Assembly: GCA_964356335.1 (NCBI GenBank) | Contig: CAYHHI010000017.1 | Coordinates: forward strand, 1 to 63,609 | Direction of reading: 5' to 3' | From: an uncultured bacterium | GTDB taxonomy: Bacteria; Arandabacterota; Arandabacteria; Arandabacterales; Arandabacteraceae | Length of the DNA stretch: 63,609 nucleotides | In this document: one piece after another, positions 49,715-63,609 of the stretch | How the letters are laid out: every line of letters begins with the position of its first letter | Position numbering within the stretch: position 1 is the first letter of the stretch | Program-made: the position numbers and the translations under genes | The notes under the pieces: model-generated | What the model saw: only the letters and a program-made list of their open reading frames with translations | The model's database searches: none | What the model was told of the DNA's origin: nothing

Positions 49715-50826
49715 AAGGGAGAATCATGGCTTCGAGAGTCTATTTCGTTGATATGCGATCGACTTCTGAATCGGGCCTCCTGGAGAGGTTCGTCGTCTGT
49801 ATGGTAAAGGCCGGGATCACCGGCATTGCCGGCGAGAAGGACATTCTTGGCATAAAGCTGCATTTTGGTGAGAAGGGCTGCACGGCTTATCTCAAGCCGA
49901 TCTACGTGAGAACGGTGATCGAGACCATGGCCAAGACCGGGTGCTCGGTGTTCCTTACGGATGCAAACACGCTTTACGGTGGCTCGCGCTCGGACAGTGT
50001 GCGGCACCTCAGGACCGCGTTCGAGCATGGCTTCTCGTATGCTTCGATGGGAGCTCCGATCCTTATCGCCGATGGGCTGAAGGGCACCAATCACGAAACG
50101 GTGAAGATCAAGGGTAAACACTTCCAGGCAGTCAAGATCGCCTCCGACGTAGCGAGGGCCGATGCCCTGCTTGTGCTCACCCATGTAAAGGGCCATGAAC
50201 TCACCGGCCTTGGAGGCGCGCTCAAGAACATGGGTATGGGCTGCGGCAGCCGCGCAGGCAAGCTTGCGATGCACTCCGACGTCCGGCCTTACGTGAGTGA
50301 CAAGTGCATCGGTTGTGGCACGTGCCTTGGTTGGTGTCCTGTCACAGCCATAAAGGTGACTGAGAAGAAGGCTACCATCGACAGCAAGGTCTGCATAGGC
50401 TGCGGGGAATGCATGTTCGTCTGCCCGCAGCGAGCCATCAAGTTCCAGTGGGATGACTCGTACAAGGTCGTTCAGGAGAAGATAGTCGAATACGCCCTGG
50501 GAGTGGCCAAGCCCAAGGGGAAGAAGGTAGGCTATGTGAGTCTCCTTGTGGACATTGCACCCCAATGCGACTGCTACCCATTCTCCGATGCGAGTATAGT
50601 GCCCAACATAGGCATCCTCGCGTCGTTAGATCCAGTGGCCATCGATCAGGCGTCCATTGATCTCATAAATGCGCAGCCGGGCATTCCCGGCACAGCTCTT
50701 AAGGACACCAAGGCCGGGACCGACAAGTTCCGCGATGTCTATCCCGATCTTGATTGGAGCGTGCAGATCAGGCACGCCGAAGACCTCAACCTCGGCAGCA
50801 GCAAATACACGCTCGTGAAGATTTGA
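49711..50826 (+). CDS. DUF362-domain protein with inserted 2x[4Fe-4S] ferredoxin
   Basis: KLHFGEKG, TDANTLY, HVKGHE..GGALKN; CIGCGTC..CP and CIGCGEC..CP; CDC; DPVAIDQAS. Confidence 0.88.
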   Translation: MKGRIMASRVYFVDMRSTSESGLLERFVVCMVKAGITGIAGEKDILGIKLHFGEKGCTAYLKPIYVRTVIETMAKTGCSVFLTDANTLYGGSRSDSVRHLRTAFEHGFSYASMGAPILIADGLKGTNHETVKIKGKHFQAVKIASDVARADALLVLTHVKGHELTGLGGALKNMGMGCGSRAGKLAMHSDVRPYVSDKCIGCGTCLGWCPVTAIKVTEKKATIDSKVCIGCGECMFVCPQRAIKFQWDDSYKVVQEKIVEYALGVAKPKGKKVGYVSLLVDIAPQCDCYPFSDASIVPNIGILASLDPVAIDQASIDLINAQPGIPGTALKDTKAGTDKFRDVYPDLDWSVQIRHAEDLNLGSSKYTLVKI

Positions 50827-50914
50827 AAAGCCTTGACTCCTCGTAGGCCCTGTGTTTGAATGCGAACACACGGGAAGCAGCAGATGCCGTCCGGCTGGCA
50901 GAGGCGCGAATCCA

Positions 50915-53293
50915 ATGGTGCGAGAATCCGGTGAGGGCCAATTGGGAGAGACTCGTTCATTCGGGGCCCTGTCCCCGGGCACTCCAATATCCCACTACCG
51001 GATCATCGAGAAGATTGGTGCCGGCGGTATGGGTGTGGTGTACAAGGCCCAGGACACCAAGCTGGATCGGATTGTGGCCTTGAAGTTCCTGCCTTCTCAC
51101 CTCGTATGTGACCCTGAGGCCAAGGACCGCTTCGAGCATGAAGCCAGGGCAGCATCGGCCTTGAACCATCCCAATATCACAACCATATATGAGATCGATG
51201 AGGTGGCAGGTGAGTGCTTCATCAGCATGGAATATGTGGCAGGCAAGTCCCTGAAAGAGACCGTAAGGGATAAGGCCCTCACGGTGCAGGAGGTCATGGG
51301 GATAGCCCTTCAGATAGGGGAGGGACTTAAGGCTGCCCACGCCAAAGGCATAGTCCACCGAGACATCAAGTCGGACAACATCAAGGTCACGGCTGAAGGC
51401 CTGGTCAAGATAATGGACTTCGGCCTGGCTAAGCTGCGGGGAGTTGCGAAGATCACCCGGACGGGGACGACGTTGGGCACTTTGCAGTATATGTCTCCGG
51501 AGCAGGCACGGGGCCTGGAGGTAGATGAACGCTCCGACATCTTCTCATTTGGGGTGGTGCTCTATGAGATGGTGACGGGGCGGTTGCCATTCACGGGGGA
51601 CAATGAGGCGGCGTTGGTCCATGCGGTGGTCAATGCAACGCCCGAGCCGATGGCGAGGTACAAGGCGAAGGTGCCTGAGGGTTTGCAGAGGGTAGTGGAG
51701 AAGGCGCTGGCGAAGAATCGGGACGAGCGCTACCAGCATGTGGACGAGATGATAGCCGATCTCAAGTCGACCAAGCGGAAGCTGGAGACGACTCCGAGTG
51801 CGGGTAAACAGGTTGGGCCTCTTGGCTCGAAGCGAAGCCGGTTGTACCTGTATGCAGGCCTCGCCCTAGTTGTTGTGCTGGTCATCCTAAGCCGTACCCA
51901 CCTCCTCGGCCCCTCGCGTGAGCCTATTGATTCTCTGGCCGTGCTGCCCCTGGAGAACCTCTCGCGTGATCCCGATCAGGAGTACTTCTCGGACGGGATG
52001 ACGGACGCCCTCATAACCGAGTTGCAGAAGATACGGTCGCTGCGGGTGATATCCCGGACATCGGTGATGCGGTTCAAGAAGAGCGAGGAGTCACTTCCCG
52101 AGATTGCCAAGACCTTGAATGTGAAGGCAGTAGTGGAGGGTTCGGTGTTGCGGGAGGGGGACGTCGTACGGATCAACGTCCAGTTGATACAGGCATCACC
52201 TGAGAAGCACTTGTGGGCGAACAGTTTCGATAGGGACATGAAAGGCGTACTAGTCCTTCAGACCGACGTTGCCCGAGCGATTGCCCAGGAGGTCAGGGCT
52301 CTTGTCACACCCGAAGAAAAGAAGGAGATGGCGAGTTCTCGGCCTGTCAATCCCGAGGCACAAGAAGCCTACCTGAAAGGTCGTTTCTATTGGAATAAGC
52401 GGACGGAGCCTGACCTGCAAAGGGCAATTGACTATTTCAATCAGGCGATTGAGAAAGATCCAAGTTATGCTCTGGCGTATGCCGGGTTGGCTTCAACACA
52501 TGTCCTACTTCCCAACTATGGTCTTCTTTCGGCCACCGAGGCCAAGACGAAGGCAGAAGCTGCAGCAGGAAGAGCGTTACAGCTTGATCCTACGCTTGGG
52601 GAGGCCCATGCGGTTTTGGCAGGGATCAAGAGCGATTATGACTGGGACTGGGCAGGTGCCGAGAGCGAATTCAAGCTGGCAATTGAGCTTTCCCCGAGCT
52701 ATCCGACAGCCCATCAGTGGTACGGCGAGCTTTTGTCGTACCTCGGCAGGCTGGATGAGGCTCTCGCAGAGATAGAACAAGCCCACGAGCTTGATCCGCT
52801 CTCACTCATTATCATTACACAACTGGGCAATGCTCTGTACTTCAAGCGAGAATATGACAATGCGATAGTTCAATACAAGAAAGCAATTGAGCTCGATCCA
52901 GACTTCCCGGGTGCCCACGTTGGGCTGGGTTGGGCGTATGAGATGCAAGGCAAGCTTGACGAAGCTATCGCAGAGTTTCAGGAGGTGAGAACACTTGGTG
53001 CCGGACTAGCGGAACTGGGGTACGGTTATGCGCGAGCCGGCAAGAGGACTGAGGCCGCGGAGATACTGAACGAGTTGCTTGAAGTTTCGAGGCAAGGGGA
53101 CCAAGTATCTTCCAGCATTGCCCTTGTCTATTATGGACTTGGGGACATGGGGAAGATGTTTGAATGGCTTGACGAAGCCTATGAGCAACGGGGCCCAGGA
53201 CTGCTGCTTATGAAAGTGGACCCGCTCTTTGACGGCCTTCGTTCGGACCCGAGATTCACCGCCTTGCTGAAGAAGATGGGGCTGGCGGATTGA
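50915..53293 (+). CDS. Hanks-type Ser/Thr kinase - TM helix - TolB-N-like domain - TPR (copy 1)
   Basis: GAGGMG, VALK, HRDIKSDN, DFG, GTLQYMSPE; TM LYLYAGLALVVVLVIL; SLAVLPLENLS..QEYFSDG; TPRs; C-terminal LRSDPRF. Confidence 0.93.
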   Translation: MVRESGEGQLGETRSFGALSPGTPISHYRIIEKIGAGGMGVVYKAQDTKLDRIVALKFLPSHLVCDPEAKDRFEHEARAASALNHPNITTIYEIDEVAGECFISMEYVAGKSLKETVRDKALTVQEVMGIALQIGEGLKAAHAKGIVHRDIKSDNIKVTAEGLVKIMDFGLAKLRGVAKITRTGTTLGTLQYMSPEQARGLEVDERSDIFSFGVVLYEMVTGRLPFTGDNEAALVHAVVNATPEPMARYKAKVPEGLQRVVEKALAKNRDERYQHVDEMIADLKSTKRKLETTPSAGKQVGPLGSKRSRLYLYAGLALVVVLVILSRTHLLGPSREPIDSLAVLPLENLSRDPDQEYFSDGMTDALITELQKIRSLRVISRTSVMRFKKSEESLPEIAKTLNVKAVVEGSVLREGDVVRINVQLIQASPEKHLWANSFDRDMKGVLVLQTDVARAIAQEVRALVTPEEKKEMASSRPVNPEAQEAYLKGRFYWNKRTEPDLQRAIDYFNQAIEKDPSYALAYAGLASTHVLLPNYGLLSATEAKTKAEAAAGRALQLDPTLGEAHAVLAGIKSDYDWDWAGAESEFKLAIELSPSYPTAHQWYGELLSYLGRLDEALAEIEQAHELDPLSLIIITQLGNALYFKREYDNAIVQYKKAIELDPDFPGAHVGLGWAYEMQGKLDEAIAEFQEVRTLGAGLAELGYGYARAGKRTEAAEILNELLEVSRQGDQVSSSIALVYYGLGDMGKMFEWLDEAYEQRGPGLLLMKVDPLFDGLRSDPRFTALLKKMGLAD

Positions 53294-53294
53294 G

Positions 53295-53381
53295 TGGTAG
53301 GCCATACAGGACAACTTTCGCACATTCTTTAGGTTGAAAGAATGCCTGGAAGTAGCGAGCCTGGCAAGGGCGCTGACCTGA
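53295..53381 (+). repeat. Post-gene repeat, copy A (att-like, tRNA-3'-end-like)
   Basis: TGGTAGGCCATACAGGACAACTTTCGCACATTC...CTGACCTGA, homologous to 57099-57185 and 59743-59829. Confidence 0.8.
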
Positions 53382-53432
53382 ACCTTCGCACCCCACCGTC
53401 GAAGTGGCGCTAGTTTCTGGATGGCGTCAGTG

Positions 53433-53595
53433 TAGTCTTCACAACCCCATTAGATTGTATTTGAAAATACAAATCCCGACGGTTGTCTGAAAAATATCAT
53501 TGTGTTGGGGAGGGGCAACGGGCGACCGGCGAGCATTCTCCCTCGGTCACAACAGATGGAGATTGTTTTCCCAAAAACAATCTGCTAGGGTTCTG
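53433..53595 (+). promoter_or_regulatory. Conserved non-coding block with two TGT-N10-ACA palindromes (copy 1)
   Basis: TTGTATTTGAAAATACAA (53455-53472) and AGATTGTTTTCCCAAAAACAATCT (53560-53583); 162/163 identical to 59881-60043 by eye. Confidence 0.65.
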
Positions 53596-53777
53596 GTGTG
53601 ACTAATCGGAAGCGATTCACAGTCATACAGGGTGACATGATCCGTTCCAGAAGAGTTACTGGCAGGGGAATGGTGGGACGGAGAAGCCGCCGCTTGGAAT
53701 CGACCCCGTGTGAGAGTCGGATTCTTCGACGACGTACAGCCAGTCGACCATGAGGAGCCTGAGAAGGAGGAACACAT

Positions 53778-56700
53778 ATGAAGTCTAGACTTGCTGTCGT
53801 CTCATTGTTTGTATGTCTGGGCTTCCTTGTCGGCCGGGCAAGTGCTGAGACTTGGCAGGACCTTCTCAGCCGGGCAGATTCACTGGCAGCTGCAGGATCC
53901 GCCGACTCCGCAGATGCTGCCCTTGAGGCAGCACTATCCAGTGCTCTGACCCAATACGAACGGTCTGACACCACGGTGGAGTTTTCCACTTTCGAGGGCG
54001 GTGCGACCCGGAGACACTATTTTCCGAGTTATGCTTACGCCGAGAGCGTCTTCGCTATGTGTCTTCGCATCAAGGAGAGGATAGTCGGATCAGCGTCACC
54101 CGGGTACGCGACGATTCTGAGCGACTTAGGGCGACTTCACAGACAGCAGGGCAGGTATTATGAGGCTGAGTCTCTGTTTGTGCAGGCGCTGTCCATCAGG
54201 GAGAAGGCACTGGGGCCAGACCATCCGGATGTGGCGGCAAGCCTCAACAGTCTGGGGAACCTCTGGTGGGATCAGGGAAGGCTCTCTGGCGCCGAATCCC
54301 TCTATGTGCGGGCCCTATCCATCAGGGAGAGGGCACTGGGGCCAAACCATCTTGATGTGGCGTGGAGCCTGAATAACCTTGCGGGCCTATGGAATGACCA
54401 GGGCAGGTACTCCGAGGCCGAACCCCTCTTTGTTCGAGCCGTGGCCATCAGGGAGAAGGTCCTAGGGCCGGACGATCTTGATGTGGCGTGGGGCCTCAAC
54501 AGTCTGGCGGGTCTCTACCAGAAGCAGGGGAGGTATTCAGAAGTCGAGCCTCTCTATGAGCGTGCGGTGGCTATAAGGGAGAAGGCGCTGGGGCCTGACC
54601 ACCCTTATGTGGCGACAAGCCTCGGCAGCCTGGCAGTTCACTACTGGGAACAGGGCAAGTATTCGGAAGCCGAGCCTCTCTTTGAGCGGGCGCTGGCCAT
54701 AAGGGAGAAGGTGCTGGGGCCTAACCACCCTAGTGTGGCGACAATCCTCAACAACCTGGGAACCATGTACTGGGATCAGGGCAGGGATTCGGAAGTCGGA
54801 CCTCTCTTTGAACGGGCACTGGCTATCTGGGAGAAGGCGCTGGGGCCTGACCACCGTAGTGTGGCGGTAAGCCTCAATAACCTGGCATCCCTCCGCTGGG
54901 ATCAGGGCAGGTACTCAGAAGCCGAGCGTCTCGAGAAGCGTGCACTGGCTATCTGGGAGAAGGCACTGGGGTCTGACCACCGGGATGTGGCATTCGGCCT
55001 CAGCAACCTGGCAACCCACCACTTCGATCAGGGCCAGTACTCAGAAGCCGAGCCTCTCTGTAAGCGGGCACTGGCTATCTGGGAGAAGGCACTGGGACCC
55101 GACCACCCGGATGTGGCATTTGGCCTCAGCAACCTGGCAGAGCTCTACCGGGAACAGGGCGAGTATTCGGAAGCCGGGCCTCTCTATGAGCGTGCACTTG
55201 CTATATTTGAGCGGGCGCTGGGGCTCGACCACCCTAATGTGGCACTGTGCCTCGAATCTTTCTGCGACCTCCATCGCCGGCGGGGCGAGCGTGCAAACGC
55301 TATCGATCTTGCTCGGCGCGCCTGCAAGATAAGGCACAAGAACCTCGTCGAAAACTCAATCGGGCTTTCCGAGAAGGACGCACTGACCTTCTCACAGCTC
55401 TTGCGGGCTTCTCTGAGCAAGTACCTCTCTTGCTGCCTCGATCTGGGCTTGACTAACCCTGCCACTGCCTTGGAGGCCGCTGATCTGGTGGTCTCCTGCA
55501 AGGGCCAAGTATCTGATGGCATACTTGAGCGTCAGAAGTCCATTGTTGGAGGGGCCGATTCAACCACTCTTAGCCTGGCTGAATCTCTCAGATATGCGAG
55601 GTTTCAACTGGCGAAGCTCTTTGTCGAAGGCTCCGGAGAGGACGTGAGTGCCTGCAAATCTGAGGTTGACTCACTGGATAGATTCTCAGAGCAACTTGAG
55701 GTCGAGCTTTCCCGAAGAAGTGCGAGTTTCAGAGCATACGAGGCTTACGGTGATGTCAACGCCGATAGGATCACTTCCTTGCTTCCTCGGAACTCGGCAC
55801 TTGCTGAATACGTGAGATATGCGTACTATGATCTAGAGCCCAAGAGAGATATTCCTCACTACCTGGTTGTCGTAATAGCTACAGATGGAGAACCCCAGGT
55901 CGTTGATCTTGGTGACGCTTCCCAGATGGACAGCGTGATTGGTACGTACCGCAGCCATATGCTAAACGTAGCCACTTCCGGCAGGCCCCCTACGTTTGTG
56001 GACGAGCAGGAATACAGGAGGTGCGCCCAGGACCTGTATGGCAAGATTTGGCAACCGATCGAGGAATACGTCTCGGGCAGAGACCTGATCTTCATCGCCC
56101 CTGACGGCGCCCTCAACATGGTTTCCTTCGCTGCTTTGATCGACAAGGATGGCAACTATCTCATCGAGGGATACCCCATCCATTACCTCTCTGCCGGGAG
56201 AGACTTGGTAAGACTCAGCGGTGAGCCAACTCCTGGCACCGGCTTGCTTGCCTTAGGTGCGCCTGACTACAACGCCTCTGCGTCAAGCCGCCTACAAGCG
56301 CCCGTAACTCAAGAGACAACCATTACCGAACTAGCTTATATCAGGACGAGGAATGTCCGTTCTGGCTGTGGCAGGCTCAATGACCTCTCCTTGCCGCCGC
56401 TTCCTGGCACGAGAAGGGAAGTTGAGCTGATATCGTCCGAGTGGAAGAAAGCCTCGCAGGAGCCTGCTTCCATCTACTTTGGCTCCGATGCAAGTGAGGA
56501 GAGATTCAAGAAGGAAGCCCATGGCAAGAGAGTCATTCACCTGGCTACTCATGGCTACTTCTTGGAGGGCGCCTGCCAGCCTGAGGTACATGAGGGAAGC
56601 CTCGAACGTGGAGGTAGCTTTGGCAGAGATGCGGGCTATGTCGGTGAGAACCCTCTTCTGCTTTCCGGCCTCTTCTTCGCAGGCGCCAACCTGCATGGTG

Positions 56701-57080
56701 AGGGAGCAGACAGATTGGGATTCGAGGACGGGATACTGACCGCATATGAGGTCTCAGGGATGAGATTGGAGGGCACTGAACTTGTGGTTCTCTCCGCCTG
56801 TGAGACGGGTTTGGGTCGGGTAGAGGAAGGAGAGGGAGTGTACGGACTGAGACGGGCCTTCCAGATGGCAGGGGCGCGAACGGTTGTCAGCGCGTTGTGG
56901 CCGGTTTCAGACGAGGCAACGGTTGAGATGATGAGCGGGTTTTATGAGAGACGCAGCGAGTCTATTCCCGAGACTATCCGCAGGATACAGTTGGAGAAGA
57001 TCAGGGACCTCAGGAGACACGGTAAGGTGGATCATCCTTATACCTGGGCGGGTTTCATCGCCTTAGGTGACTGGAGGTAG
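53778..57080 (+). CDS. Secreted TPR-CHAT (caspase-like) protease (copy 1)
   Basis: Signal peptide MKSRLAVVSLFVCLGFLVGRASA; nine 42-aa TPRs plus a cap; PDGAL, LPGTRRE, HLATHGYF, VVLSACETG, SALWPV, HPYTWAGF. Confidence 0.93.
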   Translation: MKSRLAVVSLFVCLGFLVGRASAETWQDLLSRADSLAAAGSADSADAALEAALSSALTQYERSDTTVEFSTFEGGATRRHYFPSYAYAESVFAMCLRIKERIVGSASPGYATILSDLGRLHRQQGRYYEAESLFVQALSIREKALGPDHPDVAASLNSLGNLWWDQGRLSGAESLYVRALSIRERALGPNHLDVAWSLNNLAGLWNDQGRYSEAEPLFVRAVAIREKVLGPDDLDVAWGLNSLAGLYQKQGRYSEVEPLYERAVAIREKALGPDHPYVATSLGSLAVHYWEQGKYSEAEPLFERALAIREKVLGPNHPSVATILNNLGTMYWDQGRDSEVGPLFERALAIWEKALGPDHRSVAVSLNNLASLRWDQGRYSEAERLEKRALAIWEKALGSDHRDVAFGLSNLATHHFDQGQYSEAEPLCKRALAIWEKALGPDHPDVAFGLSNLAELYREQGEYSEAGPLYERALAIFERALGLDHPNVALCLESFCDLHRRRGERANAIDLARRACKIRHKNLVENSIGLSEKDALTFSQLLRASLSKYLSCCLDLGLTNPATALEAADLVVSCKGQVSDGILERQKSIVGGADSTTLSLAESLRYARFQLAKLFVEGSGEDVSACKSEVDSLDRFSEQLEVELSRRSASFRAYEAYGDVNADRITSLLPRNSALAEYVRYAYYDLEPKRDIPHYLVVVIATDGEPQVVDLGDASQMDSVIGTYRSHMLNVATSGRPPTFVDEQEYRRCAQDLYGKIWQPIEEYVSGRDLIFIAPDGALNMVSFAALIDKDGNYLIEGYPIHYLSAGRDLVRLSGEPTPGTGLLALGAPDYNASASSRLQAPVTQETTITELAYIRTRNVRSGCGRLNDLSLPPLPGTRREVELISSEWKKASQEPASIYFGSDASEERFKKEAHGKRVIHLATHGYFLEGACQPEVHEGSLERGGSFGRDAGYVGENPLLLSGLFFAGANLHGEGADRLGFEDGILTAYEVSGMRLEGTELVVLSACETGLGRVEEGEGVYGLRRAFQMAGARTVVSALWPVSDEATVEMMSGFYERRSESIPETIRRIQLEKIRDLRRHGKVDHPYTWAGFIALGDWR
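54096..55229 (+). repeat. Nine in-frame 126-bp TPR tandem repeats
   Basis: Unit consensus HPDVAxSLNNLAxLYxDQGRYSEAEPLxERALAIREKALGPD. Confidence 0.9.
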
Positions 57081-57098
57081 ACCGTCCAAAGAATCTGG

Positions 57099-57185
57099 GA
57101 GTACACCATACAGGACAAGTTTCGCAACTTCCTGAGGTCCGAGGAGTGCCTTGAGATAGGTCAGTTGGTGGCCGCGCTCCCCTGA
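57099..57185 (+). repeat. Post-gene repeat, copy B
   Basis: GAGTACACCATACAGGACAAGTTTCGCAACTTCCTGAGGTCCGAGGAGTGCCTTGAG...CCCTGA, 18 bp after the CHAT stop. Confidence 0.8.
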
Positions 57186-57470
57186 TCCCCGCTACCCCAC
57201 CATCAAGATGGTATTAATCTCGCAGAAACCCCAAGGGTAAGAGTCGAGGCATCCGGCTGGTTGGGGATGTATCTAGCATGCATCTGAGCGATCACCGTGG
57301 GAGATCCCAGGCGCTATAAGAAACGGACTCAGGAGTCAGCACGCCTTTTCTGAGAGCCGGACACTTGTCTAACCCTTCGATAATGTCGTTGATCTGTAAC
57401 GCAACCTGTGGTGGAATGGGGACGCGCGAGAGAGGTTTAACTTCACCCGGCTGCCCAGGGGGTGAACCCA

Positions 57471-59741
57471 ATGTCCTCAGAGCCAAGTGAGGGTGGGTTG
57501 GAAGAGACTCGTCAATTCAAGGCCCTGTCCCCCGGCACTGTGATATCCCACTACAAGATCGTCGAGAAGATTGGTGCTGGAGGCATGGGTGTGGTGTATA
57601 GAGCCGAGGACACCAAGCTTCATCGGAGTGTGGCCCTGAAGTTCCTTCCTCCTGACCTGGTCTGTGATGCAGAGGCCAGGGATCGCTTTGAGCATGAGGC
57701 CGAGGCGGCATCGGCCCTGAGCCATCCCAATATTACCACCATACATGAGATAGATGAGGTGGCAGGTCGCTGCTTTATTAGCATGGAATACGTGGAGGGC
57801 AAGTCGCTGAAGGAGATGGTAAGGGAGAAGGCTCTCTCCATAGAGGATGTGTTGGCAATAGCGCTCCAGATAGGGGAGGGGCTGAAGGCAGCTCACGCCA
57901 GGGGCGTCGTGCATCGGGACATAAAGTCGGACAACATCAAGGTGACGAGTGATGGCCTGGTCAAGATCATGGACTTCGGGCTGGCCAAGCTGCGGGGAGT
58001 TGCGAAGCTCACCCGGACGGGGACGACCCTGGGCACCTTGCACTATATGTCACCGGAGCAGGCGCAGGGGCGGGAGGTGGATGAGCGCTCTGACATCTTC
58101 TCCTTTGGTGTGGTGCTTTATGAGATGGTGACGGGGCGGTTGCCATTTAGCGGGGACACTGAGGTGGCCTTGGTCCATGCGGTGGTCAACGAAACGCCGG
58201 AGCCGATGGCCAGGTACAAGGCGAAGGTCCCTGAGGGACTCGATCGGGCAGTTGAGAAGGCGCTGGCGAAGAGTCGGGACGAGCGCTACCAGCATGTGGA
58301 CGAGATGATAGCCGATCTCAAGTCAACCAGGAGGAAGTTGGAGACTGCAGCGGGTCTCGAGTTGCCGGATCAGGAGAAGTCGATTGTTGTGCTGCCCTTC
58401 GAGAACCTGAGCCCCGATCCTGACCAGGAATACTTCAGCGATGGCCTGACCGAGGAGGTAATCTCTGACCTTTCCAACGTCCGCGTGTTGCGTGTGATCT
58501 CCCGGAGCTCTGCGATGACATTCAAAGGGACGAAGACGACAATTCCTGAAATCGCAAGACGGCTCAAGGTGCAATATGTGCTGGAGGGGAGTGTAAGAAA
58601 GGCAGGCAACAGCCTGCGCATCACAGCTCAGTTGATAGACGCACGCAGCGACGCACACATCTGGGCTGAGAAGTACTCAGGCACGCTGGATGATGTCTTT
58701 GACATCCAGGAGAAGGTTTCCCGCGCCATCGTCGAAGCCCTGAAGCTCAAGCTTACGCCAGAAGAGAAACCCAGACTGTCTGTCAATCCCGAGGCGCACG
58801 AAGCCTATCTCAAGGGCCGATTCTATTGGAACAAGCGGACGGGGTCTGATCTGCAGAAGGCAGTCAACTATTTCAACCAAGTGATAGAGAAAGACCCGAT
58901 GTATGCTCTGGCGTATGCTGGATTGGCTTCGGCATATGCCGTACTTGCAAGCTATGCTCCGATGCCGCAAATGGAGGCTATGTCGAAGGCAGAAGCTGCA
59001 GCAAATAGAGCATTGGAGCTTGATGCTAAACTTGCAGAAGCCCATGCTGTCTTAGGGTCGATTAGGAGCGAGTTTGAGTGGGATTGGGCAGGTGGGGAAC
59101 GTGAGTTCAAGCGAGCAATTGAGCTCGATCCCAGCAACCCAACGGCCCGTCATTGGTACACCCTTCTGTTACTCCAGCTCGGCAGGTTGGATGAAGCCCT
59201 CGCAGAGATCAAACGAGCAAACGAGCTTGATCCGCTCTCGCTCGTCATCAACACCGTAATGGGCGATGCTCTTTACTTTAGGCGAGAATATGACGAGGCG
59301 ATAGTTCAACACAAGAAGACACTCGAGCTCGACCCATGCTTTGCTGTTGCTCATTTGCATCTGGGTGTCGTGTATGAAGCGCAAGGCAAATCGGATGAAG
59401 CTATCGCAGAGTTTCAGAAGGGAAGAGCGCTGATTGGAAGCGGTCCTTATGGACTATCAAGCTTGGGGTACGGTTACGCACGAGCCGGCGAGAGGAGTGA
59501 GGCCGCGAAGATAGTGAATGAGTTGCTTGAGTTTCCGGGCCAAGGGTACTCGGTATCTTTGGACATTGCCCAGATCTACTTTGGACTCGACGACAAGGAC
59601 AAGGCCTTCGAATGGCTCGAGAAGGCTTATCAGGAACGGCCTCAGTTGCTCCCGTATTTGAAGACGCAACCGCTTTGGGACGGCCTTCGTTCGGACCCGA
59701 GATTCACCGCCTTGCTGAAGAAAATGGGGCTAGCGGATTGA
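57471..59741 (+). CDS. Hanks-type Ser/Thr kinase - TolB-N-like domain - TPR, no TM helix (copy 2)
   Basis: Same catalytic motifs as copy 1; linker LETAAGLELPDQEKSIVVLPFENLS lacks a hydrophobic segment. Confidence 0.93.
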   Translation: MSSEPSEGGLEETRQFKALSPGTVISHYKIVEKIGAGGMGVVYRAEDTKLHRSVALKFLPPDLVCDAEARDRFEHEAEAASALSHPNITTIHEIDEVAGRCFISMEYVEGKSLKEMVREKALSIEDVLAIALQIGEGLKAAHARGVVHRDIKSDNIKVTSDGLVKIMDFGLAKLRGVAKLTRTGTTLGTLHYMSPEQAQGREVDERSDIFSFGVVLYEMVTGRLPFSGDTEVALVHAVVNETPEPMARYKAKVPEGLDRAVEKALAKSRDERYQHVDEMIADLKSTRRKLETAAGLELPDQEKSIVVLPFENLSPDPDQEYFSDGLTEEVISDLSNVRVLRVISRSSAMTFKGTKTTIPEIARRLKVQYVLEGSVRKAGNSLRITAQLIDARSDAHIWAEKYSGTLDDVFDIQEKVSRAIVEALKLKLTPEEKPRLSVNPEAHEAYLKGRFYWNKRTGSDLQKAVNYFNQVIEKDPMYALAYAGLASAYAVLASYAPMPQMEAMSKAEAAANRALELDAKLAEAHAVLGSIRSEFEWDWAGGEREFKRAIELDPSNPTARHWYTLLLLQLGRLDEALAEIKRANELDPLSLVINTVMGDALYFRREYDEAIVQHKKTLELDPCFAVAHLHLGVVYEAQGKSDEAIAEFQKGRALIGSGPYGLSSLGYGYARAGERSEAAKIVNELLEFPGQGYSVSLDIAQIYFGLDDKDKAFEWLEKAYQERPQLLPYLKTQPLWDGLRSDPRFTALLKKMGLAD

Positions 59742-59742
59742 C

Positions 59743-59829
59743 TGGTACACCAGACAGGACAACTTTCGCAACTTCCTGAGGTCGGAAGAATGCCTGGAAG
59801 TAGCGAGCCTGGCAAGGGCGCTGACCTGA
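59743..59829 (+). repeat. Post-gene repeat, copy C
   Basis: TGGTACACCAGACAGGACAACTTTCGCAACTTCCTGAGGTCGGAAGAATGCCTGGAAG...CTGACCTGA. Confidence 0.8.
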
Positions 59830-59880
59830 ACCTTCGTACCCCACCGTCGAAGTGGCGCTAATTTCTGGACGGCGCCAGGG

Positions 59881-60043
59881 TAGTCTTCACAACCCCATTA
59901 GATTGTATTTGAAAATACAAATCCCGACGGTTGTCTGAAAAATATCATTGTGTTGGGGAGGGGCAACGGGCGACCGGCGAGCATTCTCCCTCGGTCACAA
60001 CAGATGGAGATTGTTTTCCTAAAAACAATCTGCTAGGGTTCTG
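59881..60043 (+). promoter_or_regulatory. Conserved non-coding block with two TGT-N10-ACA palindromes (copy 2)
   Basis: Palindromes at 59903-59920 and 60008-60031. Confidence 0.65.
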
Positions 60044-60045
60044 CT

Positions 60046-60231
60046 GTGACTAATCGGAAGCGATTCACGGTCATACAGGGGGACATGATCTGTTCCAGAA
60101 GAATTACCGGCAGGGGAATGGTGGGACGGAGAAGACGCCGCTTAGAATCGACCCTGGGGGAGTCAGGATTCTTCGATGACGTAGAGCCAATCGAACATGA
60201 GGAGCCTGAGAACGAGGAGGCACACATATGA
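60046..60231 (+). CDS. Possible 61-aa leader ORF coupled (ATGA overlap) to CHAT copy 2
   Basis: Basic N-terminal half, acidic C-terminal half; the paralogous stretch at 53598-53781 differs largely by synonymous or conservative changes but carries a +1 frameshift. Confidence 0.35.
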   Translation: MTNRKRFTVIQGDMICSRRITGRGMVGRRRRRLESTLGESGFFDDVEPIEHEEPENEEAHI

Positions 60232-63200
60232 AGTCTAGACTTGCTGTTGTCTCATTGTTTGTATCTCTGTGCTTTCTTGCAGGCCGGGTAAGTGCTGAGG
60301 CCTGGCAAGACCTTCTCAGCCGGGCGGATTCACTGGCAGCCTTGGGATCCGCCGACTCCGCAGATGCTGCCCTTGAGGCAGCACTATCCAGTGCTCTGAC
60401 CCAATACGAACGGTCTGACACCACAGTGGAGTTTTCCACTTTCGAGGACGGTGCGACCCGGAGGCACTATTTTCCCAGTTACGCTTACGCCGAGAGTGTC
60501 TTCACCAGGTGTCTTCGCATTAAGGAGAGGATCGCCGGATCAGGTGCACCCGGGTACGCGAAGATTCTGAGCGACTTAGGGCGACTTCACAGACAGCAGG
60601 GCAGGTATTCTGAGGCTGAGTCTCTGTTTGTGCGGGCCCTAGCGATCAGGGAGAAGGCCCTGGGGCCGGACCACCCGGATGTGGCGGCAAGCCTCAACAA
60701 TCTCGGGAACCTTTGGTGGGATCAGGGAAGGCTCTCTGGTGCCGAGTCCCTTTATGTGCGGGCTCTATCCATCAGGGAGAGGGCCCTTGGGCCAGACCAT
60801 CTTGATGTGGCGTGGAGCCTGAATAACCTTGCGGGCCTATGGAATGCACAGGGCAGGTACTCCGAGGCTGAACCCCTCTTTGTTCGAGCCCTGGCCATCA
60901 GGGAAAAGGTCCTTGGGCGGGACGACCTTGATGTGGCGTGGGGTCTCAACAGCCTGGCAGGTCTCTACCGGGTGGAGGGGAGGTATTCAGAAGCCGAGCC
61001 CGCCTATGAGCGGGCGCTGGCTATAAGGGAGAAGGTGCTGGGACCTGACCACCCTTATGTGGCGACAAGCCTCAACGACCTGGCAATCCTCTGCTGGGAA
61101 CAGGGCAAGTATTCGGAAGCCGAACCTCTCTCTGAGCGTGCGCTGGCTACAAGGGAGAAGGTGCTGGGGCCTGACCACCCGAGTGTGGCGGTAAGCCTTA
61201 ACAACCTGGCAATCCTCTACTCCGATCAGGGGAGGTATTCGGAAGCCGAGGCTCTCTTTGAGCGTGCGCTGGCCATAAGGGAGAAGGTGCTGGGGCCTGA
61301 CCACGCGAGTGTGGCGATAAGCCTCAACAACCTGGCAAGCCTCTACTTCGATCAGGGCAGGTATTCAGAAGCCGAGCCTCTTTTTGAGCGTGCGCTGGCT
61401 ATAGGGGAGAAGGCACTGGGACTTGACCACCGCACTGTGGCGGGTAGCCTCGGCAACCTGGCAAACATCTACCGGTCTCAGGGCAGGTATTCAGAAGCCG
61501 AGCCTCTCTACAAGCGGGATCTGGCTACAAGTGAGAGGGCGCTGGGGCCCGACCACCCCGATTTGGCATATAGCCTCGACAACCTGGCAAGCCTCTACTT
61601 CGATCAGGGCAGGTATTCAGAAGCCGAGCCTCTCTATAAGCGGGCACTGGCAATAAGTGAGAGGGCACTGGGACCTGACCACCCGATGGTGGCGGTAATC
61701 CTCGACAACCTGGCAAACCTCTATGGGGCTCAGGGCAGGTATTCAGAAGCCGAGCCCCTCCATAAGCGGGCACTGGCAATAAGTGAGAGGGCACTGGGGC
61801 CCGACCACCCCGATGTGGCAGAGTACCTGGAGTCTTTGGGCGGACTCTATCGCCAGCAAGGCGAGCATGCACAGGCTCTAGAGTTCGCCCGGCGCGCCTG
61901 CAAGATAAGGCACAAGAACTTCGTTGAGAACTCAATCGGGCTTTCTGAGAAAGACGCACTGACCTACTCACAGTTTCTGCGGGCTTCTCTAAGCAAGTAC
62001 CTCTCTTGCTACGTGGATCTGGGCTCGGCTGACCCTGCCATTGCTCTGGGGGCCGCTCACCTGGTGCTTGACTGCAAGGGCCAAGTGTCTGATGGCATAC
62101 TTGAGCGTCAGAAGGCCATCGTGGAGAGGGCGGATTCAGCATCTCTTGACCTGGCGGAATCCCTCAGATATGCCAGGTTCCAACTGGCGAAGCTCTTTGT
62201 CGAAGGCCCGGGGGAGGATGTGAGTGCCTATAGAGCTGAGGTTGACTCACTGGGCAGATTGTCGAAGCAACTTGAGGCCGACCTTTCCCGAAGAAGTGCC
62301 AGTTTCAGAGGATACGTGGCTTACAGGAATGTCACTGCTGGTAGGATTGCCTCCTTGCTCCCTCAGAACTCGGTACTCGCTGAGTACGTGAGGTATGCAT
62401 ACCATGATCTCGAGCTCAAGAAAGACATTCCTCACTACCTGGTTGTCGTAATGGCTACCGATGGAGAACCGCAGATCGTTGATCTTGGTAAATCTGCCGA
62501 GATTGACACCGTGATTGGTACCTACCGCAGCCACATGCTGAGTGTGGCCACTTCCGGTAGGCCGCCTACGGTTGTGGACGAGCAAGAATACAGTGGGTGC
62601 GTCCAGGAGCTGTATAGCAAGGTCTGGCAACCGATCGAGCAATACGTTTCGGGCAGAGACCTGGTCGTCATCGCTCCTGATGGTGCCCTCAATATGGTTT
62701 CCTTCGCTGCCTTGATCGACAAGGAGGGCAACTACCTCATAGAGGGGTACCCCATCCAGTACCTCTCTGCGGGAAGAGACCTCGCAAGAATCAGCGATGA
62801 AACGGCTCCTGGCACTGGCTTGCTAGCGATGGGCGCGCCGGACTACAATGTCTCTGCCTCAAGCCGCCTGCAATATAGTGGAACTCCGGAGACAACCAGC
62901 AGTGACATAGCTCATATCACAACGAGGAATGTCCGTTCTGGCTGTGGCAGACTCAAAGACGTCTCCGTTCCTCCACTTCCCGGCACGAAAAGGGAGGTTG
63001 AGCTGATATCGTCCAAGTGGAAGAGAGCGTCACACGAACCTACTTCCATCTACTTTGGCTGCGATGCGAGTGAGGAAAGACTCAAGAAGGAAGCCCATGG
63101 CAAGCGAGTCATTCACCTGGCTACGCATGGTTATTTCTTGGAGGGTGCATGCCAGCCCGAGGTGTCTGAGGAAAGATTCGAATCTGGAAGCGAACTTGGC

Positions 63201-63609
63201 AAAGACCGGGGCTATGTTGGCGAGAACCCTCTTCTGCTTTCTGGCCTCTTCTTCGCAGGTGCCAACCTGCATGGTGAGGGAGCAGACAGATTGGGATTCG
63301 AGGACGGGATACTGACAGCATATGAGGTCTCAGGGATGAACCTCGAGGGCACTGAACTTGTGGTGCTCTCCGCCTGTGAGACAGGTTTGGGGCGGGTTGA
63401 GGAGGGAGAGGGAGTGTACGGACTGAGACGGGCCTTTCAGATGGCAGGGGCGCGAACGGTTGTCAGTGCGTTGTGGCCGGTTTCAGACGAGGCGACGGCT
63501 GAGATGATGAGTCGGTTTTACGAGAGACGCAGCGAGTCTATTCCCGAGACTATTCGCAGGATACAGTTGGAGAAGATCAGGGACCTCAGGAGACACGGTA
63601 AGGTGGATC
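60228..63609 (+). CDS. Secreted TPR-CHAT protease (copy 2; 3' end just beyond the window)
   Basis: Not in the ORF track (no stop in window). ATG 60228 after SD GAGGAGG, MKSRLAVVSLFVSLCFLAGRVSA; ten TPRs; HLATHGYF and VVLSACETG present; the frame at the window end matches copy 1 plus 42 aa. Confidence 0.92.
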   Translation, partial: MKSRLAVVSLFVSLCFLAGRVSAEAWQDLLSRADSLAALGSADSADAALEAALSSALTQYERSDTTVEFSTFEDGATRRHYFPSYAYAESVFTRCLRIKERIAGSGAPGYAKILSDLGRLHRQQGRYSEAESLFVRALAIREKALGPDHPDVAASLNNLGNLWWDQGRLSGAESLYVRALSIRERALGPDHLDVAWSLNNLAGLWNAQGRYSEAEPLFVRALAIREKVLGRDDLDVAWGLNSLAGLYRVEGRYSEAEPAYERALAIREKVLGPDHPYVATSLNDLAILCWEQGKYSEAEPLSERALATREKVLGPDHPSVAVSLNNLAILYSDQGRYSEAEALFERALAIREKVLGPDHASVAISLNNLASLYFDQGRYSEAEPLFERALAIGEKALGLDHRTVAGSLGNLANIYRSQGRYSEAEPLYKRDLATSERALGPDHPDLAYSLDNLASLYFDQGRYSEAEPLYKRALAISERALGPDHPMVAVILDNLANLYGAQGRYSEAEPLHKRALAISERALGPDHPDVAEYLESLGGLYRQQGEHAQALEFARRACKIRHKNFVENSIGLSEKDALTYSQFLRASLSKYLSCYVDLGSADPAIALGAAHLVLDCKGQVSDGILERQKAIVERADSASLDLAESLRYARFQLAKLFVEGPGEDVSAYRAEVDSLGRLSKQLEADLSRRSASFRGYVAYRNVTAGRIASLLPQNSVLAEYVRYAYHDLELKKDIPHYLVVVMATDGEPQIVDLGKSAEIDTVIGTYRSHMLSVATSGRPPTVVDEQEYSGCVQELYSKVWQPIEQYVSGRDLVVIAPDGALNMVSFAALIDKEGNYLIEGYPIQYLSAGRDLARISDETAPGTGLLAMGAPDYNVSASSRLQYSGTPETTSSDIAHITTRNVRSGCGRLKDVSVPPLPGTKREVELISSKWKRASHEPTSIYFGCDASEERLKKEAHGKRVIHLATHGYFLEGACQPEVSEERFESGSELGKDRGYVGENPLLLSGLFFAGANLHGEGADRLGFEDGILTAYEVSGMNLEGTELVVLSACETGLGRVEEGEGVYGLRRAFQMAGARTVVSALWPVSDEATAEMMSRFYERRSESIPETIRRIQLEKIRDLRRHGKVD
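60546..61805 (+). repeat. Ten in-frame 126-bp TPR tandem repeats
   Basis: Hand translation gives 10 full units before the capping repeat at 61806. Confidence 0.9.

What the first reader, a model, noticed from the sequence alone, without database searches (positions are those of the whole stretch)
53295..59829. Same ~87-bp tRNA-end-like element after every visible gene end in the array: possible recombination-site-delimited cassette system
Seen: three copies (53295-53381, 57099-57185, 59743-59829) start 1-18 bp after the stops of two unrelated gene types, so the kinase-CHAT duplication alone does not explain copy B. (i) Copy C reads TGG-T-ACACCAG-ACAGG-AC..., the same spacing as a reverse-complemented tRNA 3' end (compare tRNA-Leu at 2543: TGG-T-GCCGGAG-GTCGG-AT-TTGAA-CCGAC), but the T-loop is replaced by AACTTTCGCAACTT before CCTG. 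(ii) It is an imperfect bulged palindrome, CAGG(AC)AAGTT-TCGC-AACTT-CCTG in copy B. (iii) All copies keep one start-less frame ending at the same TGA: WYTRQDNFRNFLRSEECLEVASLARALT, EYTIQDKFRNFLRSEECLEIGQLVAALP, W*AIQDNFRTFFRLKECLEVASLARALT. Inference: att-site scars carrying the C-terminal tail of a tRNA-targeting recombinase, left by repeated integration. The array would then be an integron-like accretion of single-gene cassettes. No such recombinase is in the window.
Basis: partly seen in the sequence, partly recalled or inferred. Interest (0 to 1): 0.85.

Follow-up and report, generated by a model that had tools for sequence, protein, structure and literature searches.

The report
tRNA-anchored gene cassette array junctions
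The repeated ~90-130-base element marks the joints of single-gene cassettes that have piled up one after another next to tRNA genes in Candidatus Eisenbacteria, each joint keeping a copy of the tRNA's last 18 bases plus a conserved, start-less 28-codon tail of unknown origin.

Summary
The three copies belong to a family with 14 copies in this 3.45-Mb genome. Same-family and same-order genomes and sediment metagenomes hold over 100 more, and every named record is Ca. Eisenbacteria.

- **tRNA end:** The first 18 nt are a reverse-complement copy of a tRNA 3' end including CCA. Arrays at tRNA-Asp match 15-18 of 18, and arrays at tRNA-Trp match 13-17 of 18.
- **Array geometry:** All 47 neighbouring copy pairs lie on the same strand. 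Nine arrays end at an intact tRNA gene in the predicted orientation.
- **Variable content:** The same tRNA loci hold different cargo, or none, in related genomes.
- **Coding signature:** The next ~70 nt look protein-coding. 52% of single-base codon differences are synonymous, against 17-20% in other frames. The frame is open in 53 of 58 copies and has a fixed stop in 43 of 58. No start and no parent gene were found.
- **Not an integron:** It is not an attC site, as there is no single-strand fold.

Best reading: these are att-type junctions of recombinase-less mini-cassettes accreted at tRNA genes. This is a new variant of tandem tRNA/tmRNA islands. The recombinase and the role of the peptide frame remain open.

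The parts
50852..53293 (+). Ser/Thr kinase-TPR gene 1 (813 aa). Its stop lies 1 nt before core A.
   Evidence: ORF; Pkinase E 5e-49 plus TPR.
53295..53312 (+). Core A: an 18-nt tRNA-3'-end-like segment (TGG, discriminator, 7-nt acceptor strand, 5-nt T-stem strand, AC), reverse complement of a tRNA end.
   Evidence: The first 9-10 nt of this core type match tRNA-Arg of contig C31.
53295..53381 (+). Module A: 28-codon start-less frame ending in TGA. It is decaying, with an in-frame TAG and about 5 non-synonymous changes against C.
53382..53430 (+). Conserved stretch after the stop. It is shared with C and C31:930 and continues to the CHAT gene.
53778..57080 (+). TPR-CHAT gene 1 (1100 aa), cargo of the cassette headed by A.
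   Evidence: CHAT E 1.5e-67.
57081..57098 (+). Right end of the CHAT cassette (short purine-rich arm ending ..AATC TGG). It recurs at C31:4717-4744 and C106:43-70.
57099..57185 (+). Module B: core (57099-57116, TGG replaced by GAG) plus the 28-codon frame EYTIQDKFRNFLRSEECLEIGQLVAALP and TGA. It heads the kinase-2 cassette.
   Evidence: E 1e-18.
57186..57235 (+). Conserved ~50 nt after the stop (..CTACCCCACCATCnAnnTGGTATTAAT..), present in about half of the own-genome copies.
57462..59741 (+). Ser/Thr kinase-TPR gene 2 (759 aa). Its stop lies 1 nt before core C.
59743..59829 (+). Module C: core (59743-59760) plus the intact 28-codon frame WYTRQDNFRNFLRSEECLEVASLARALT and TGA.
   Evidence: E 5e-18.
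59830..59880 (+). Conserved stretch after the stop, as in A.
60228..63609 (+). TPR-CHAT gene 2, which runs off the window. Contig C106 continues it and shows the next junction.

Best explanation
**What it is.** The element is the junction module of tandem mini-cassette arrays built by site-specific recombination at the 3' ends of tRNA genes in Ca. Eisenbacteria.

**Anatomy of a joint.** Read on the strand opposite to the tRNA, each joint has three parts:
1. A short purine-rich end of the preceding cassette.
2. An 18-nt copy of a tRNA 3' end (CCA, discriminator, acceptor strand, T-stem strand and 2 T-loop bases). This is the att core.
3. The conserved left arm of the next cassette, about 70 nt of peptide-coding-like sequence ending at a fixed stop. 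In some subfamilies about 45 more conserved nt follow.

A cassette is therefore [module - spacer - one cargo gene - short right arm]. New cassettes enter at the intact tRNA and push older ones outward, so every joint points the same way and the array ends in the tRNA gene.

**Crossover (inferred).** Many cores are hybrids. Their first 7-9 nt match the local tRNA and the rest is a generic 'CCATAC(A/G)GGAC'. This places the crossover inside the acceptor-stem part.

**Recombinase (inferred).** The cassettes carry no recombinase, so they would be moved in trans. The candidates are the large serine recombinases of these genomes, whose genes run into tRNA or tmRNA 3' ends.

**The 28-codon frame (inferred).** It is most likely the 3' end of an ORF that crosses the attachment site in the free or tandem form of an autonomous relative. 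That ORF could be a recombinase tail or a small co-factor. Each integration would strand a start-less copy that then decays.

**Confidence.** The figure of 0.7 is for the att-junction and array reading. The origin of the frame is much less certain.
For: **Shown**
- **tRNA identity.** Cores match the last 18 nt of the tRNA that ends the same array. The tRNA-Asp arrays match at 15-18 of 18, with two at 18/18. The tRNA-Trp arrays match at 13-17 of 18. For tRNA-Arg the first 9 nt match.
- **Above background.** 18 of 100 distinct cores lie within 3 of 15 mismatches of a tRNA end. Control 18-mers reach that in 11 of 5000 and 83 of 5000.
- **Geometry.** 115 copies in 65 sequences were examined. 47 of 47 neighbouring pairs within 5 kb are on the same strand, with a median spacing of 1606 nt. 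Of 14 element-tRNA pairs within 4 kb, 12 are downstream on the opposite strand (9 arrays), 2 are upstream (one locus) and 0 are on the same strand.
- **Polymorphism.** The own tRNA-Asp has a spacer of roughly 250 nt to the next conserved gene. In G006 the same two anchors are about 10 kb apart, with at least 3 elements and cargo between them. The tRNA-Trp locus carries different cargo in the own genome and in G007.
- **Module travels with the downstream cargo.** A, C and C31:930 precede CHAT genes. B and C31:7278 precede kinases.
- **A partial site.** C31:4727-4744 keeps only the first 13 nt of the core.
- **Coding signature and fixed stop.**
- **Decay in place.** A differs from C, and there are in-frame stops in C77 and C88.
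- **Candidate recombinases.** Large serine recombinase genes overlap tRNA-Glu or tmRNA 3' ends. One recombinase remnant abuts an element.
- **Precedents in print.** Passages read in PMC3146451 describe tandem ssrA islands bounded by a 20-bp repeat, with a serine recombinase and integrase-less cis-mobilizable members. Passages read in bioRxiv 10.1101/2020.12.28.424599 describe tycheposons, with partial tRNAs scattered through islands.
Against: - **No active recombinase tied to these sites.** None of 28 neighbouring proteins scanned with Pfam is a recombinase. tblastn with 4 serine recombinases found only one remnant in all loci.
- **No excised circle or precise deletion seen.** laid only short contigs.
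- **Many cores are only tRNA-like.** 50 of 100 sit at 5 of 15 mismatches, close to the '..GGAC' control mode of 5-6. Only the own genome's tRNAs and a few relatives' tRNAs were in the comparison set.
- **Weak fit at two arrays.** The Arg and Glu arrays match their tRNA poorly beyond the first 4-9 nt.
- **No element on the window's left edge.** Kinase 1 starts 25 nt after a housekeeping-type gene.
- **One geometry exception.** In locus L083 the tRNAs lie on the wrong side.
- **No gene crossing the core was found.** No long protein carries the motif. Three recombinase types read the core in three different frames.
- **No viral or episomal copy.** A scan of viral contigs found none.
Confidence: 0.7

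Rival explanations
1. An independent small-protein gene of about 30-40 aa. It would be translated where it sits and duplicated along with the cassettes.
For: - The coding signature is strong and the stop is fixed.
- Conservation ends at the stop codon in the most divergent copies.
- A few copies have an in-frame ATG 4-5 codons upstream, or an MFRT start.
- Gene callers predict 112 short ORFs that end with the motif.
Against: - 30 of 58 copies have no ATG, GTG or TTG in frame before the preceding stop.
- The N-termini of the predicted ORFs are unrelated.
- The conserved NTG at the 5' edge is out of frame, and it is the base next to the tRNA CCA copy.
- 5 of 58 frames carry stops and 15 of 58 have lost the canonical stop.
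- There is no Pfam or NCBIfam match.
Confidence: 0.12
2. An integron-type cassette array, in which the element is an attC site recombined as folded single-stranded DNA by an IntI integrase.
For: The elements form one-directional arrays of mostly single, unrelated genes, each separated by a ~100-nt repeat.
Against: - There is no significant single-strand fold on either strand of the 4 copies tested. z ranges from -2.1 to +1.2, and 5 to 178 of 200 shuffles fold as well.
- No R''/R' core motifs were seen by eye.
- The repeat is coding-like and begins with a tRNA end.
- The arrays are anchored at tRNA genes, not at an intI-attI platform.
- None of the 15 PF00589 hits in the genome lies beside an array.
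Confidence: 0.02
3. The footprint of a retroelement. The 18-mer would be a primer-binding site complementary to a tRNA 3' end, as in LTR retroelements, and the frame would be the start of its leader or ORF.
For: The tRNA-complementary block is exactly 18 nt, includes CCA, and ends 2 nt into the T-loop.
Against: - Hybrid cores (local tRNA on the left, generic sequence on the right) point to crossover, not priming.
- The arrays sit precisely at tRNA genes, and the last cassette abuts the intact tRNA.
- No repeats flanking single units other than the cores were seen.
- Reverse transcriptase genes were not searched for.
Confidence: 0.04
4. A dispersed non-autonomous repeat (MITE/REP-like), or a 3'-UTR or terminator RNA element, unrelated to recombination.
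For: - It is intergenic and often 50-250 nt from a convergent gene end.
- Some copies carry a GGGG-AAA-CCCC hairpin after the stop.
- Many copies lie near contig ends.
Against: - There are no terminal inverted repeats. One search found 0 inverted pairs in 50000-63609.
- No Rfam family matches.
- No fold is better than shuffles.
- Strand polarity is strict and the arrays end at tRNAs.
- The orientation relative to neighbouring genes is not fixed.
- The substitution pattern is codon-like.
Confidence: 0.05

Closest known systems
Dehalococcoides ssrA genomic islands (McMurdie et al. 2011, PMC3146451; passages read)
   Same: - Multiple tandem islands lie downstream of one small-RNA gene, each bounded by a ~20-bp direct repeat of that gene's 3' end.
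- A large serine recombinase gene sits at the edge next to the RNA gene.
- Some members lack an integrase and are proposed to be cis-mobilizable ('accretion').
- Here a serine recombinase likewise reads into the tmRNA gene on contig C35.
   Different: - The units here are 1-4 kb and carry a single gene, rather than islands of phage-genome size.
- The anchors are several different tRNA genes.
- No integration module lies in the arrays.
- Every unit carries a conserved, peptide-coding-like arm next to the repeat.
Tycheposons and tRNA-seeded genomic islands of Prochlorococcus (Hackl et al., bioRxiv 10.1101/2020.12.28.424599; passages read)
   Same: - Integration is at tRNA or tmRNA genes and leaves partial tRNAs at both ends.
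- Successive integrations push older elements further into the island.
- Partial tRNAs and degraded remnants are scattered through the islands.
- The cargo consists of accessory genes.
   Different: - Those elements carry tyrosine recombinases (910 of 937) or large serine recombinases, and often replication genes.
- Their att segments are around 40 nt.
- Here the cassettes lack recombinases, the tRNA copy is 18 nt, and a conserved coding-like arm accompanies each.
Integron cassette arrays (attC/IntI); comparison from general knowledge
   Same: The arrays are one-directional and made of promoter-poor, mostly single-gene cassettes, each with its own ~60-140-nt recombination-associated repeat.
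   Different: - There is no attC hairpin.
- There is no IntI-attI platform.
- The anchor is a tRNA gene.
- The repeat lies at the head of the cassette, linked to the downstream cargo, not at its tail.
SSV-type integrase partition and 'gene capture' at archaeal tRNA genes
   Same: A coding sequence crosses the tRNA-derived attachment site, so integration leaves a start-less C-terminal gene fragment beside a tRNA fragment.
   Different: - No full-length gene crossing the site was found here.
- The host is a bacterial lineage.
- The stranded piece is only 25-28 codons long.
- The recombinases nearby are serine, not tyrosine, enzymes.

Membership tests
Tandem integrative elements at tRNA/tmRNA genes (tRNA islands, ssrA-GI-like, tycheposon-like) | The array abuts the 3' end of an intact tRNA or tmRNA gene. 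| tested here: met
   9 arrays meet this: own C31 (Arg), C77 (Trp) and C27 (Glu), plus L057 (Trp), L058, L085, L096 and L145 (Asp) and L123 (Glu). The window's own array runs off its contig.
Tandem integrative elements at tRNA/tmRNA genes | Direct repeats of the tRNA 3' end at every unit boundary, all in one orientation. | tested here: met
   Asp arrays match at 15-18 of 18 and Trp arrays at 13-17 of 18. Arg arrays match at 10-11 of 18 and the Glu array poorly. All 47 of 47 neighbouring pairs are on the same strand.
Tandem integrative elements at tRNA/tmRNA genes | A site-specific recombinase encoded at the edge of the unit. | tested here: not met
   No recombinase was found among 28 neighbouring proteins. 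There is only one serine recombinase remnant beside an element, in L079. The units would have to be moved in trans.
Tandem integrative elements at tRNA/tmRNA genes | Presence/absence or content differences at the same site in related genomes. | tested here: met
   The tRNA-Asp site is empty in the own genome and holds a ~10-kb array in G006. The cargo at tRNA-Trp differs between genomes.
Tandem integrative elements at tRNA/tmRNA genes | Excised circles or precise excision joints. | tested here: inconclusive
   Four runs with small word shares were laid. They gave only short contigs and no informative joints at the cores.
Integron (attC + IntI) | attC folds as a single-stranded imperfect hairpin. 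| tested here: not met
   4 copies folded on both strands give z from -2.13 to +1.16.
Integron (attC + IntI) | An integron integrase with attI at the array head. | tested here: not met
   The arrays are headed by tRNA genes. None of the 15 PF00589 hits in the own genome is adjacent to an array. IntI-specific features were not tested.
MITE / IS remnant | Terminal inverted repeats and target-site duplications. | tested here: not met
   One search found 0 inverted pairs. The alignment of 14 copies shows no inverted ends.
tmRNA or other known RNA family | A match to a curated model. | tested here: not met
   ARAGORN finds only 3 tRNAs in the window. Rfam at E<=1 returns only one spurious lncRNA hit.
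LTR-retroelement primer-binding site | An 18-nt complement of a tRNA 3' end next to an LTR, with a reverse transcriptase. | tested here: inconclusive
   The 18-nt complement is present in a subset. No LTR-like flanking repeats were seen. Reverse transcriptase was not searched for.
Gene split by integration (SSV-type) | A full-length gene that spans the attachment site in the free form. | tested here: not met
   112 of 115 profile hits are short ORFs and 3 are repetitive false hits. The 'longer' search with P0049 found 4 recombinases, none with the motif. No viral contig matches.

The most novel reading that the evidence does not exclude
A bacterial cassette-capture system that works like an integron but is anchored at tRNA genes. 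Recombinase-less single-gene cassettes would be inserted and excised in trans. Their recognition arm would double as the last 25-28 codons of a gene (a recombinase tail or a directionality factor) that is complete only when a cassette end is joined to the core, in a circle or behind an autonomous unit. The act of recombination would then switch that gene's C-terminus on and off.
Probability: 0.15. Interest if true: 0.85.

Novelty: new variant of a known kind. Interest (0 to 1): 0.62.

Why it matters
**For the biology of the lineage.** The finding shows how an uncultured candidate phylum builds its variable gene content. Kinases, CHAT proteases, secreted beta-helix and T9SS-tailed proteins, serpins and phosphatases are stacked as one-gene units at several tRNA genes.

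**For annotation.** The conserved module is a ready marker for finding these islands in metagenomes.

**For mechanism.** If the cassettes are moved in trans by a tRNA-directed serine recombinase, this would be an integron-like gene-capture device of independent origin. It would come with defined short attachment sites of possible use as recombination tools. The start-less but codon-constrained tail is an unexplained feature that could reveal a gene completed only by recombination.

Tried and rejected
**Leads that went nowhere**
- **attC-like or RNA structure.** Folds are no better than shuffles and Rfam finds nothing.
- **Bulged palindrome.** It is confined to the B subgroup.
- **Small ORF starting at the conserved NTG, with a +1 shift.** The apparent frame-0 signal in the first 18 nt comes from different tRNA-derived cores. 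That frame is open in only 18 of 58 copies.
- **Antisense coding.** The reverse frames are open in 25-41 of 58 copies, against 53 of 58 for the forward frame.
- **Parent gene.**
  - The HMM search of 1.84 billion proteins found none.
  - The 'longer' word search found none.
  - Pfam and NCBIfam returned nothing.
  - The viral contig scan returned no relatives.
  - The 31 metagenome loci hold no long ORF and no recombinase.
- **C55/C53 serine recombinases as parent.** Only the last ~8 codons plus the 3' flank of the C55 gene resemble the element's end (nhmmer E 6.5e-4 in 1 kb). The normal tail of that recombinase family is the C53 type.
- **The C35 tmRNA-directed recombinase.** A 17/18 copy of the tmRNA end lies at C70:5230, but it is not followed by the module.
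- **-1 frameshift at C_CCA_AAC in one core subfamily.** This is speculative, and the heptamer is absent from the other subfamilies.
- **Sequencing runs.** No RNA holder was listed. The DNA runs hold small shares. The contigs laid were short and gave no informative joints at the cores.
- **Literature.** 'Eisenbacteria' is held by 81 papers. I saw the listing of 15, and none concerns repeats or islands. I did not search further for this element in print. Supplementary files of papers were not opened.

Full report
**The observation.** The window carries two Ser/Thr kinase-TPR genes and two TPR-CHAT genes:
- kinase 1, 50852-53293
- CHAT 1, 53778-57080
- kinase 2, 57462-59741
- CHAT 2, 60228 to beyond the window end

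After three gene ends lies the element the finder described. Copy A begins at 53295, one base after the kinase stop. Copy B begins at 57099, 18 bases after the CHAT stop. Copy C begins at 59743, one base after the kinase stop.

A and C belong to a ~6.45-kb tandem duplication and are 92% identical over 300 nt. B is an independent copy, 75% identical to A and 86% to C over 59 nt. All three keep a start-less frame ending at the same TGA, and A has an in-frame TAG.

**A family, not three copies.** An HMM built from A, B and C finds 14 copies on 9 contigs of this 3.45-Mb, 176-contig genome. None is joined to a long ORF in the conserved frame.

A profile of the 28-residue frame was searched against 40 other genomes in six frames:
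- 9 of 12 same-family genomes match.
- 2 of 3 genomes of a second family in the same order match.
- 1 of 2 genomes of a third family give a weak match.
- The 23 remoter genomes give only one marginal hit (E 0.006).
- Every match sits in a short open frame of 27-176 aa, apart from the marginal hit.

A pattern scan of one genome per species (185,579 species) returned 17 loci. All are in MAGs titled Candidatus Eisenbacteria or simply 'bacterium'. A scan of JGI metagenome contigs returned 31 loci. A scan of viral contigs returned none.

**The frame is codon-constrained but has no start and no parent.** Over 58 distinct copies:
- In nt 15-90, 52% of single-base codon differences are synonymous in the finder's frame, against 17% and 20% in the other two forward frames.
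- That frame is open in 53 of 58 copies. The other five frames are open in 5-41 of 58.
- A stop sits at the same codon in 43 of 58 copies.
- 30 of 58 copies have no ATG, GTG or TTG in frame before the preceding stop.

A profile of 30 copies was searched against 1.84 billion representative proteins and gave 115 hits. Of these, 112 are 24-145-aa ORFs that end with the motif and have unrelated N-termini. The other three are long repetitive proteins matched by many short stretches. Pfam and NCBIfam give nothing.

Copies also decay where they sit. A differs from its recent duplicate C by a stop and about five replacements, and the copies on C77 and C88 carry in-frame stops.

**The 5' end is a tRNA 3' end.** I compared the first 18-20 nt of all copies with the reverse complement of the genome's tRNA 3' ends. 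One subfamily equals tRNA-Trp at 18 of 18. Another resembles tRNA-Asp at 16 of 18. Similarity stops 2 nt into the T-loop.

Within arrays, the cores match the tRNA gene that ends that same array:
- Three tRNA-Asp arrays: 15-18 of 18, with two at 18/18.
- Two tRNA-Trp arrays: 13-17 of 18.
- A tRNA-Arg array: 10-11 of 18, with the first 9 identical.
- A tRNA-Glu array: poor.

Many cores are hybrids. The first 7-9 nt follow the local tRNA, and the rest is a generic 'CCATAC(A/G)GGAC' that recurs at four different tRNAs. This is what a crossover inside the acceptor-stem part would leave.

Against a set of 56 tRNA ends, 18 of 100 distinct cores lie within 3 of 15 mismatches. Control 18-mers beginning with TGG reach that in 11 of 5000, and controls ending in GGAC in 83 of 5000. 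Half of the cores sit at 5 mismatches, near the control mode. The comparison set lacked most of the relatives' tRNAs.

**Arrays anchored at tRNA genes.** Among 115 copies in 65 non-redundant sequences:
- All 47 neighbouring pairs within 5 kb lie on the same strand.
- Spacing ranges from 121 to 3888 nt, with a median of 1606 nt.
- Of 14 element-tRNA pairs within 4 kb, 12 have the tRNA downstream on the opposite strand (nine arrays).
- 2 pairs have it upstream (one locus, L083), and none has it on the same strand.

In this genome, contig C31 reads: element, CHAT, partial core, kinase, element, kinase, tRNA-Arg. The last kinase stop lies one base before the tRNA's CCA end, exactly as kinase stops precede cores A and C in the window. 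C77 and C27 end in the same way at tRNA-Trp and tRNA-Glu.

**Cargo and orientation.** Cargo is diverse:
- kinases and CHAT proteins
- a DUF11 protein
- beta-helix proteins
- an FHA-GAF histidine kinase
- a BNR protein with a T9SS tail
- a serpin
- a DUF4185 protein
- polysaccharide deacetylases
- a SpoIIE phosphatase
- several proteins with no family match

The module has no fixed orientation relative to its neighbours. Its subtype goes with the downstream gene. A, C and C31:930 are alike and precede CHAT genes, while B and C31:7278 are alike and precede kinases. The unit is therefore [module - spacer - cargo - short right arm].

**Content varies between genomes.** The genes on both sides of the own tRNA-Asp (contig C20) are conserved in G006. 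There they are separated from the tRNA by about 10 kb holding at least three elements and cargo. In the own genome the spacer is roughly 250 nt. At the conserved tRNA-Trp locus, the own genome and G007 carry different cargo.

**Where the window's array goes.** Contig C106 continues the window after about 5 nt. It shows the CHAT-2 stop, the same 18-nt right arm and the same 13-nt core. A different conserved module ('module 2') follows, then a kinase, then module 2 again. Module 2 also lies at C31:4745 and three times in G007, on the same strand as the first module. The finder's predicted fourth copy is thus a junction of the same kind with a second module type.

**What it is not.**
- Four copies folded as single-stranded DNA on both strands are no more stable than shuffles, with z from -2.1 to +1.2. 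The attC reading therefore fails.
- Rfam and ARAGORN find no RNA family.
- There are no inverted ends.

**Recombinases.** No recombinase was found in the arrays. The lineage does have large serine recombinases whose genes run into small-RNA genes:
- The own C35 gene reads through the tmRNA 3' end, ending ..WWRRRESNPRPK...
- Genes in G008 and G013 end ..VAPRG(I/F)EPRSDG. The G008 gene overlaps tRNA-Glu(ctc).

In one locus (L079, G011) a frameshifted 3' remnant of such a recombinase abuts an element and reads the core in another frame. Its relatives P0116-P0119 end in tRNA-like translations, which I infer from the protein sequences alone.

P0049, a 97-aa metagenomic ORF, joins this recombinase's C-terminus in frame to the motif. 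It is about 8 residues shorter at the joint than its relatives, so a deletion probably made the fusion. The three recombinase types read the core in three different frames, so none is shown to own the tail.

**Interpretation.** The shown facts fit tandem accretion of small, recombinase-less cassettes at tRNA genes by site-specific recombination. These facts are:
- tRNA-end copies at every joint
- strict polarity
- arrays ending in intact tRNAs
- hybrid cores
- differences in content between genomes

The closest described systems are the tandem ssrA islands of Dehalococcoides. Those have a 20-bp repeat, a serine recombinase and integrase-less cis-mobilizable members (PMC3146451, passages read). 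The tRNA-seeded islands of Prochlorococcus built by tycheposons are also close (bioRxiv 10.1101/2020.12.28.424599, passages read).

Three features are new here: the integron-like grain of one gene per 1-4 kb, the use of several tRNAs by one module family, and the conserved arm with a protein-coding signature.

My inference, not shown, is that this arm is the end of an ORF that crosses the attachment site in an autonomous or circular form. Each integration would then strand a start-less copy that slowly decays. A small protein translated in place is the main rival.

**Limits.**
- All genomes are fragmented MAGs.
- The recombinase is not identified.
- No excision product was seen. One search was uninformative.
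- Reverse transcriptases were not searched for.

Noticed in passing
own genome, 23 places, e.g. C31:865, C77:3881, C3:99051; L057 at 10095, 14789 and 16185 (- strand): A second dispersed repeat, 'GGGGTTGGGAACAGACATCGTGACCCC', is often followed by about 80 more conserved nt. In 5 places it lies 70-90 nt upstream of the element studied here.
   Followed up: partly
C31:4745-4860; C106:71-175 and 2614-2675; L059 3554-3622 and 7867-7935; L089 757-806: A second cassette-head module ('module 2') follows the same 13-nt core after CHAT and kinase genes. It too keeps a short open frame ending ..PF* and starts with another tRNA-end-like 18-mer.
   Followed up: partly
own contig C35:1448-3569 and C70:5230: A 612-aa large serine recombinase gene overlaps the 3' end of the tmRNA gene by about 65 nt. 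A 17/18 copy of the tmRNA end lies on contig C70, which is likely the far end of that island.
   Followed up: partly
window 54021-55329 and 60471-61905: Both CHAT genes hold 126-nt (42-aa) tandem TPR repeats, 9-10 units at 60-92% identity. The second gene has an extra unit.
   Followed up: no
own contigs C53:4220-6085 and C55:2266-4053; G007 C20, C63, C80: This is a family of 86%-identical large serine recombinase genes not linked to tRNAs. The C55 copy has its last ~30 codons replaced, and its end and 3' flank resemble the element's 3' end.
   Followed up: partly
L079 3019-3040 and other subfamily-III cores: The core 'TGGCTCCCCAAAC..' holds the heptamer C_CCA_AAC in the register of the abutting recombinase frame. 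A -1 slip there would lead into the conserved frame. This is speculative.
   Followed up: no
window 22159-22674: A tyrosine recombinase domain (PF00589, E 2e-48, 320-aa frame) lies about 30 kb from the array. It may be XerC/D-like.
   Followed up: no
L057 around 10100-10200 and 17660-17760: Neighbouring beta-helix cargo genes share a conserved upstream stretch ('CGTGCTATA(A/C)TG ... GCAGAG(C/T)TGAAAGG(A/G)GG' before the ATG). It looks like a common promoter and ribosome-binding region.
   Followed up: no
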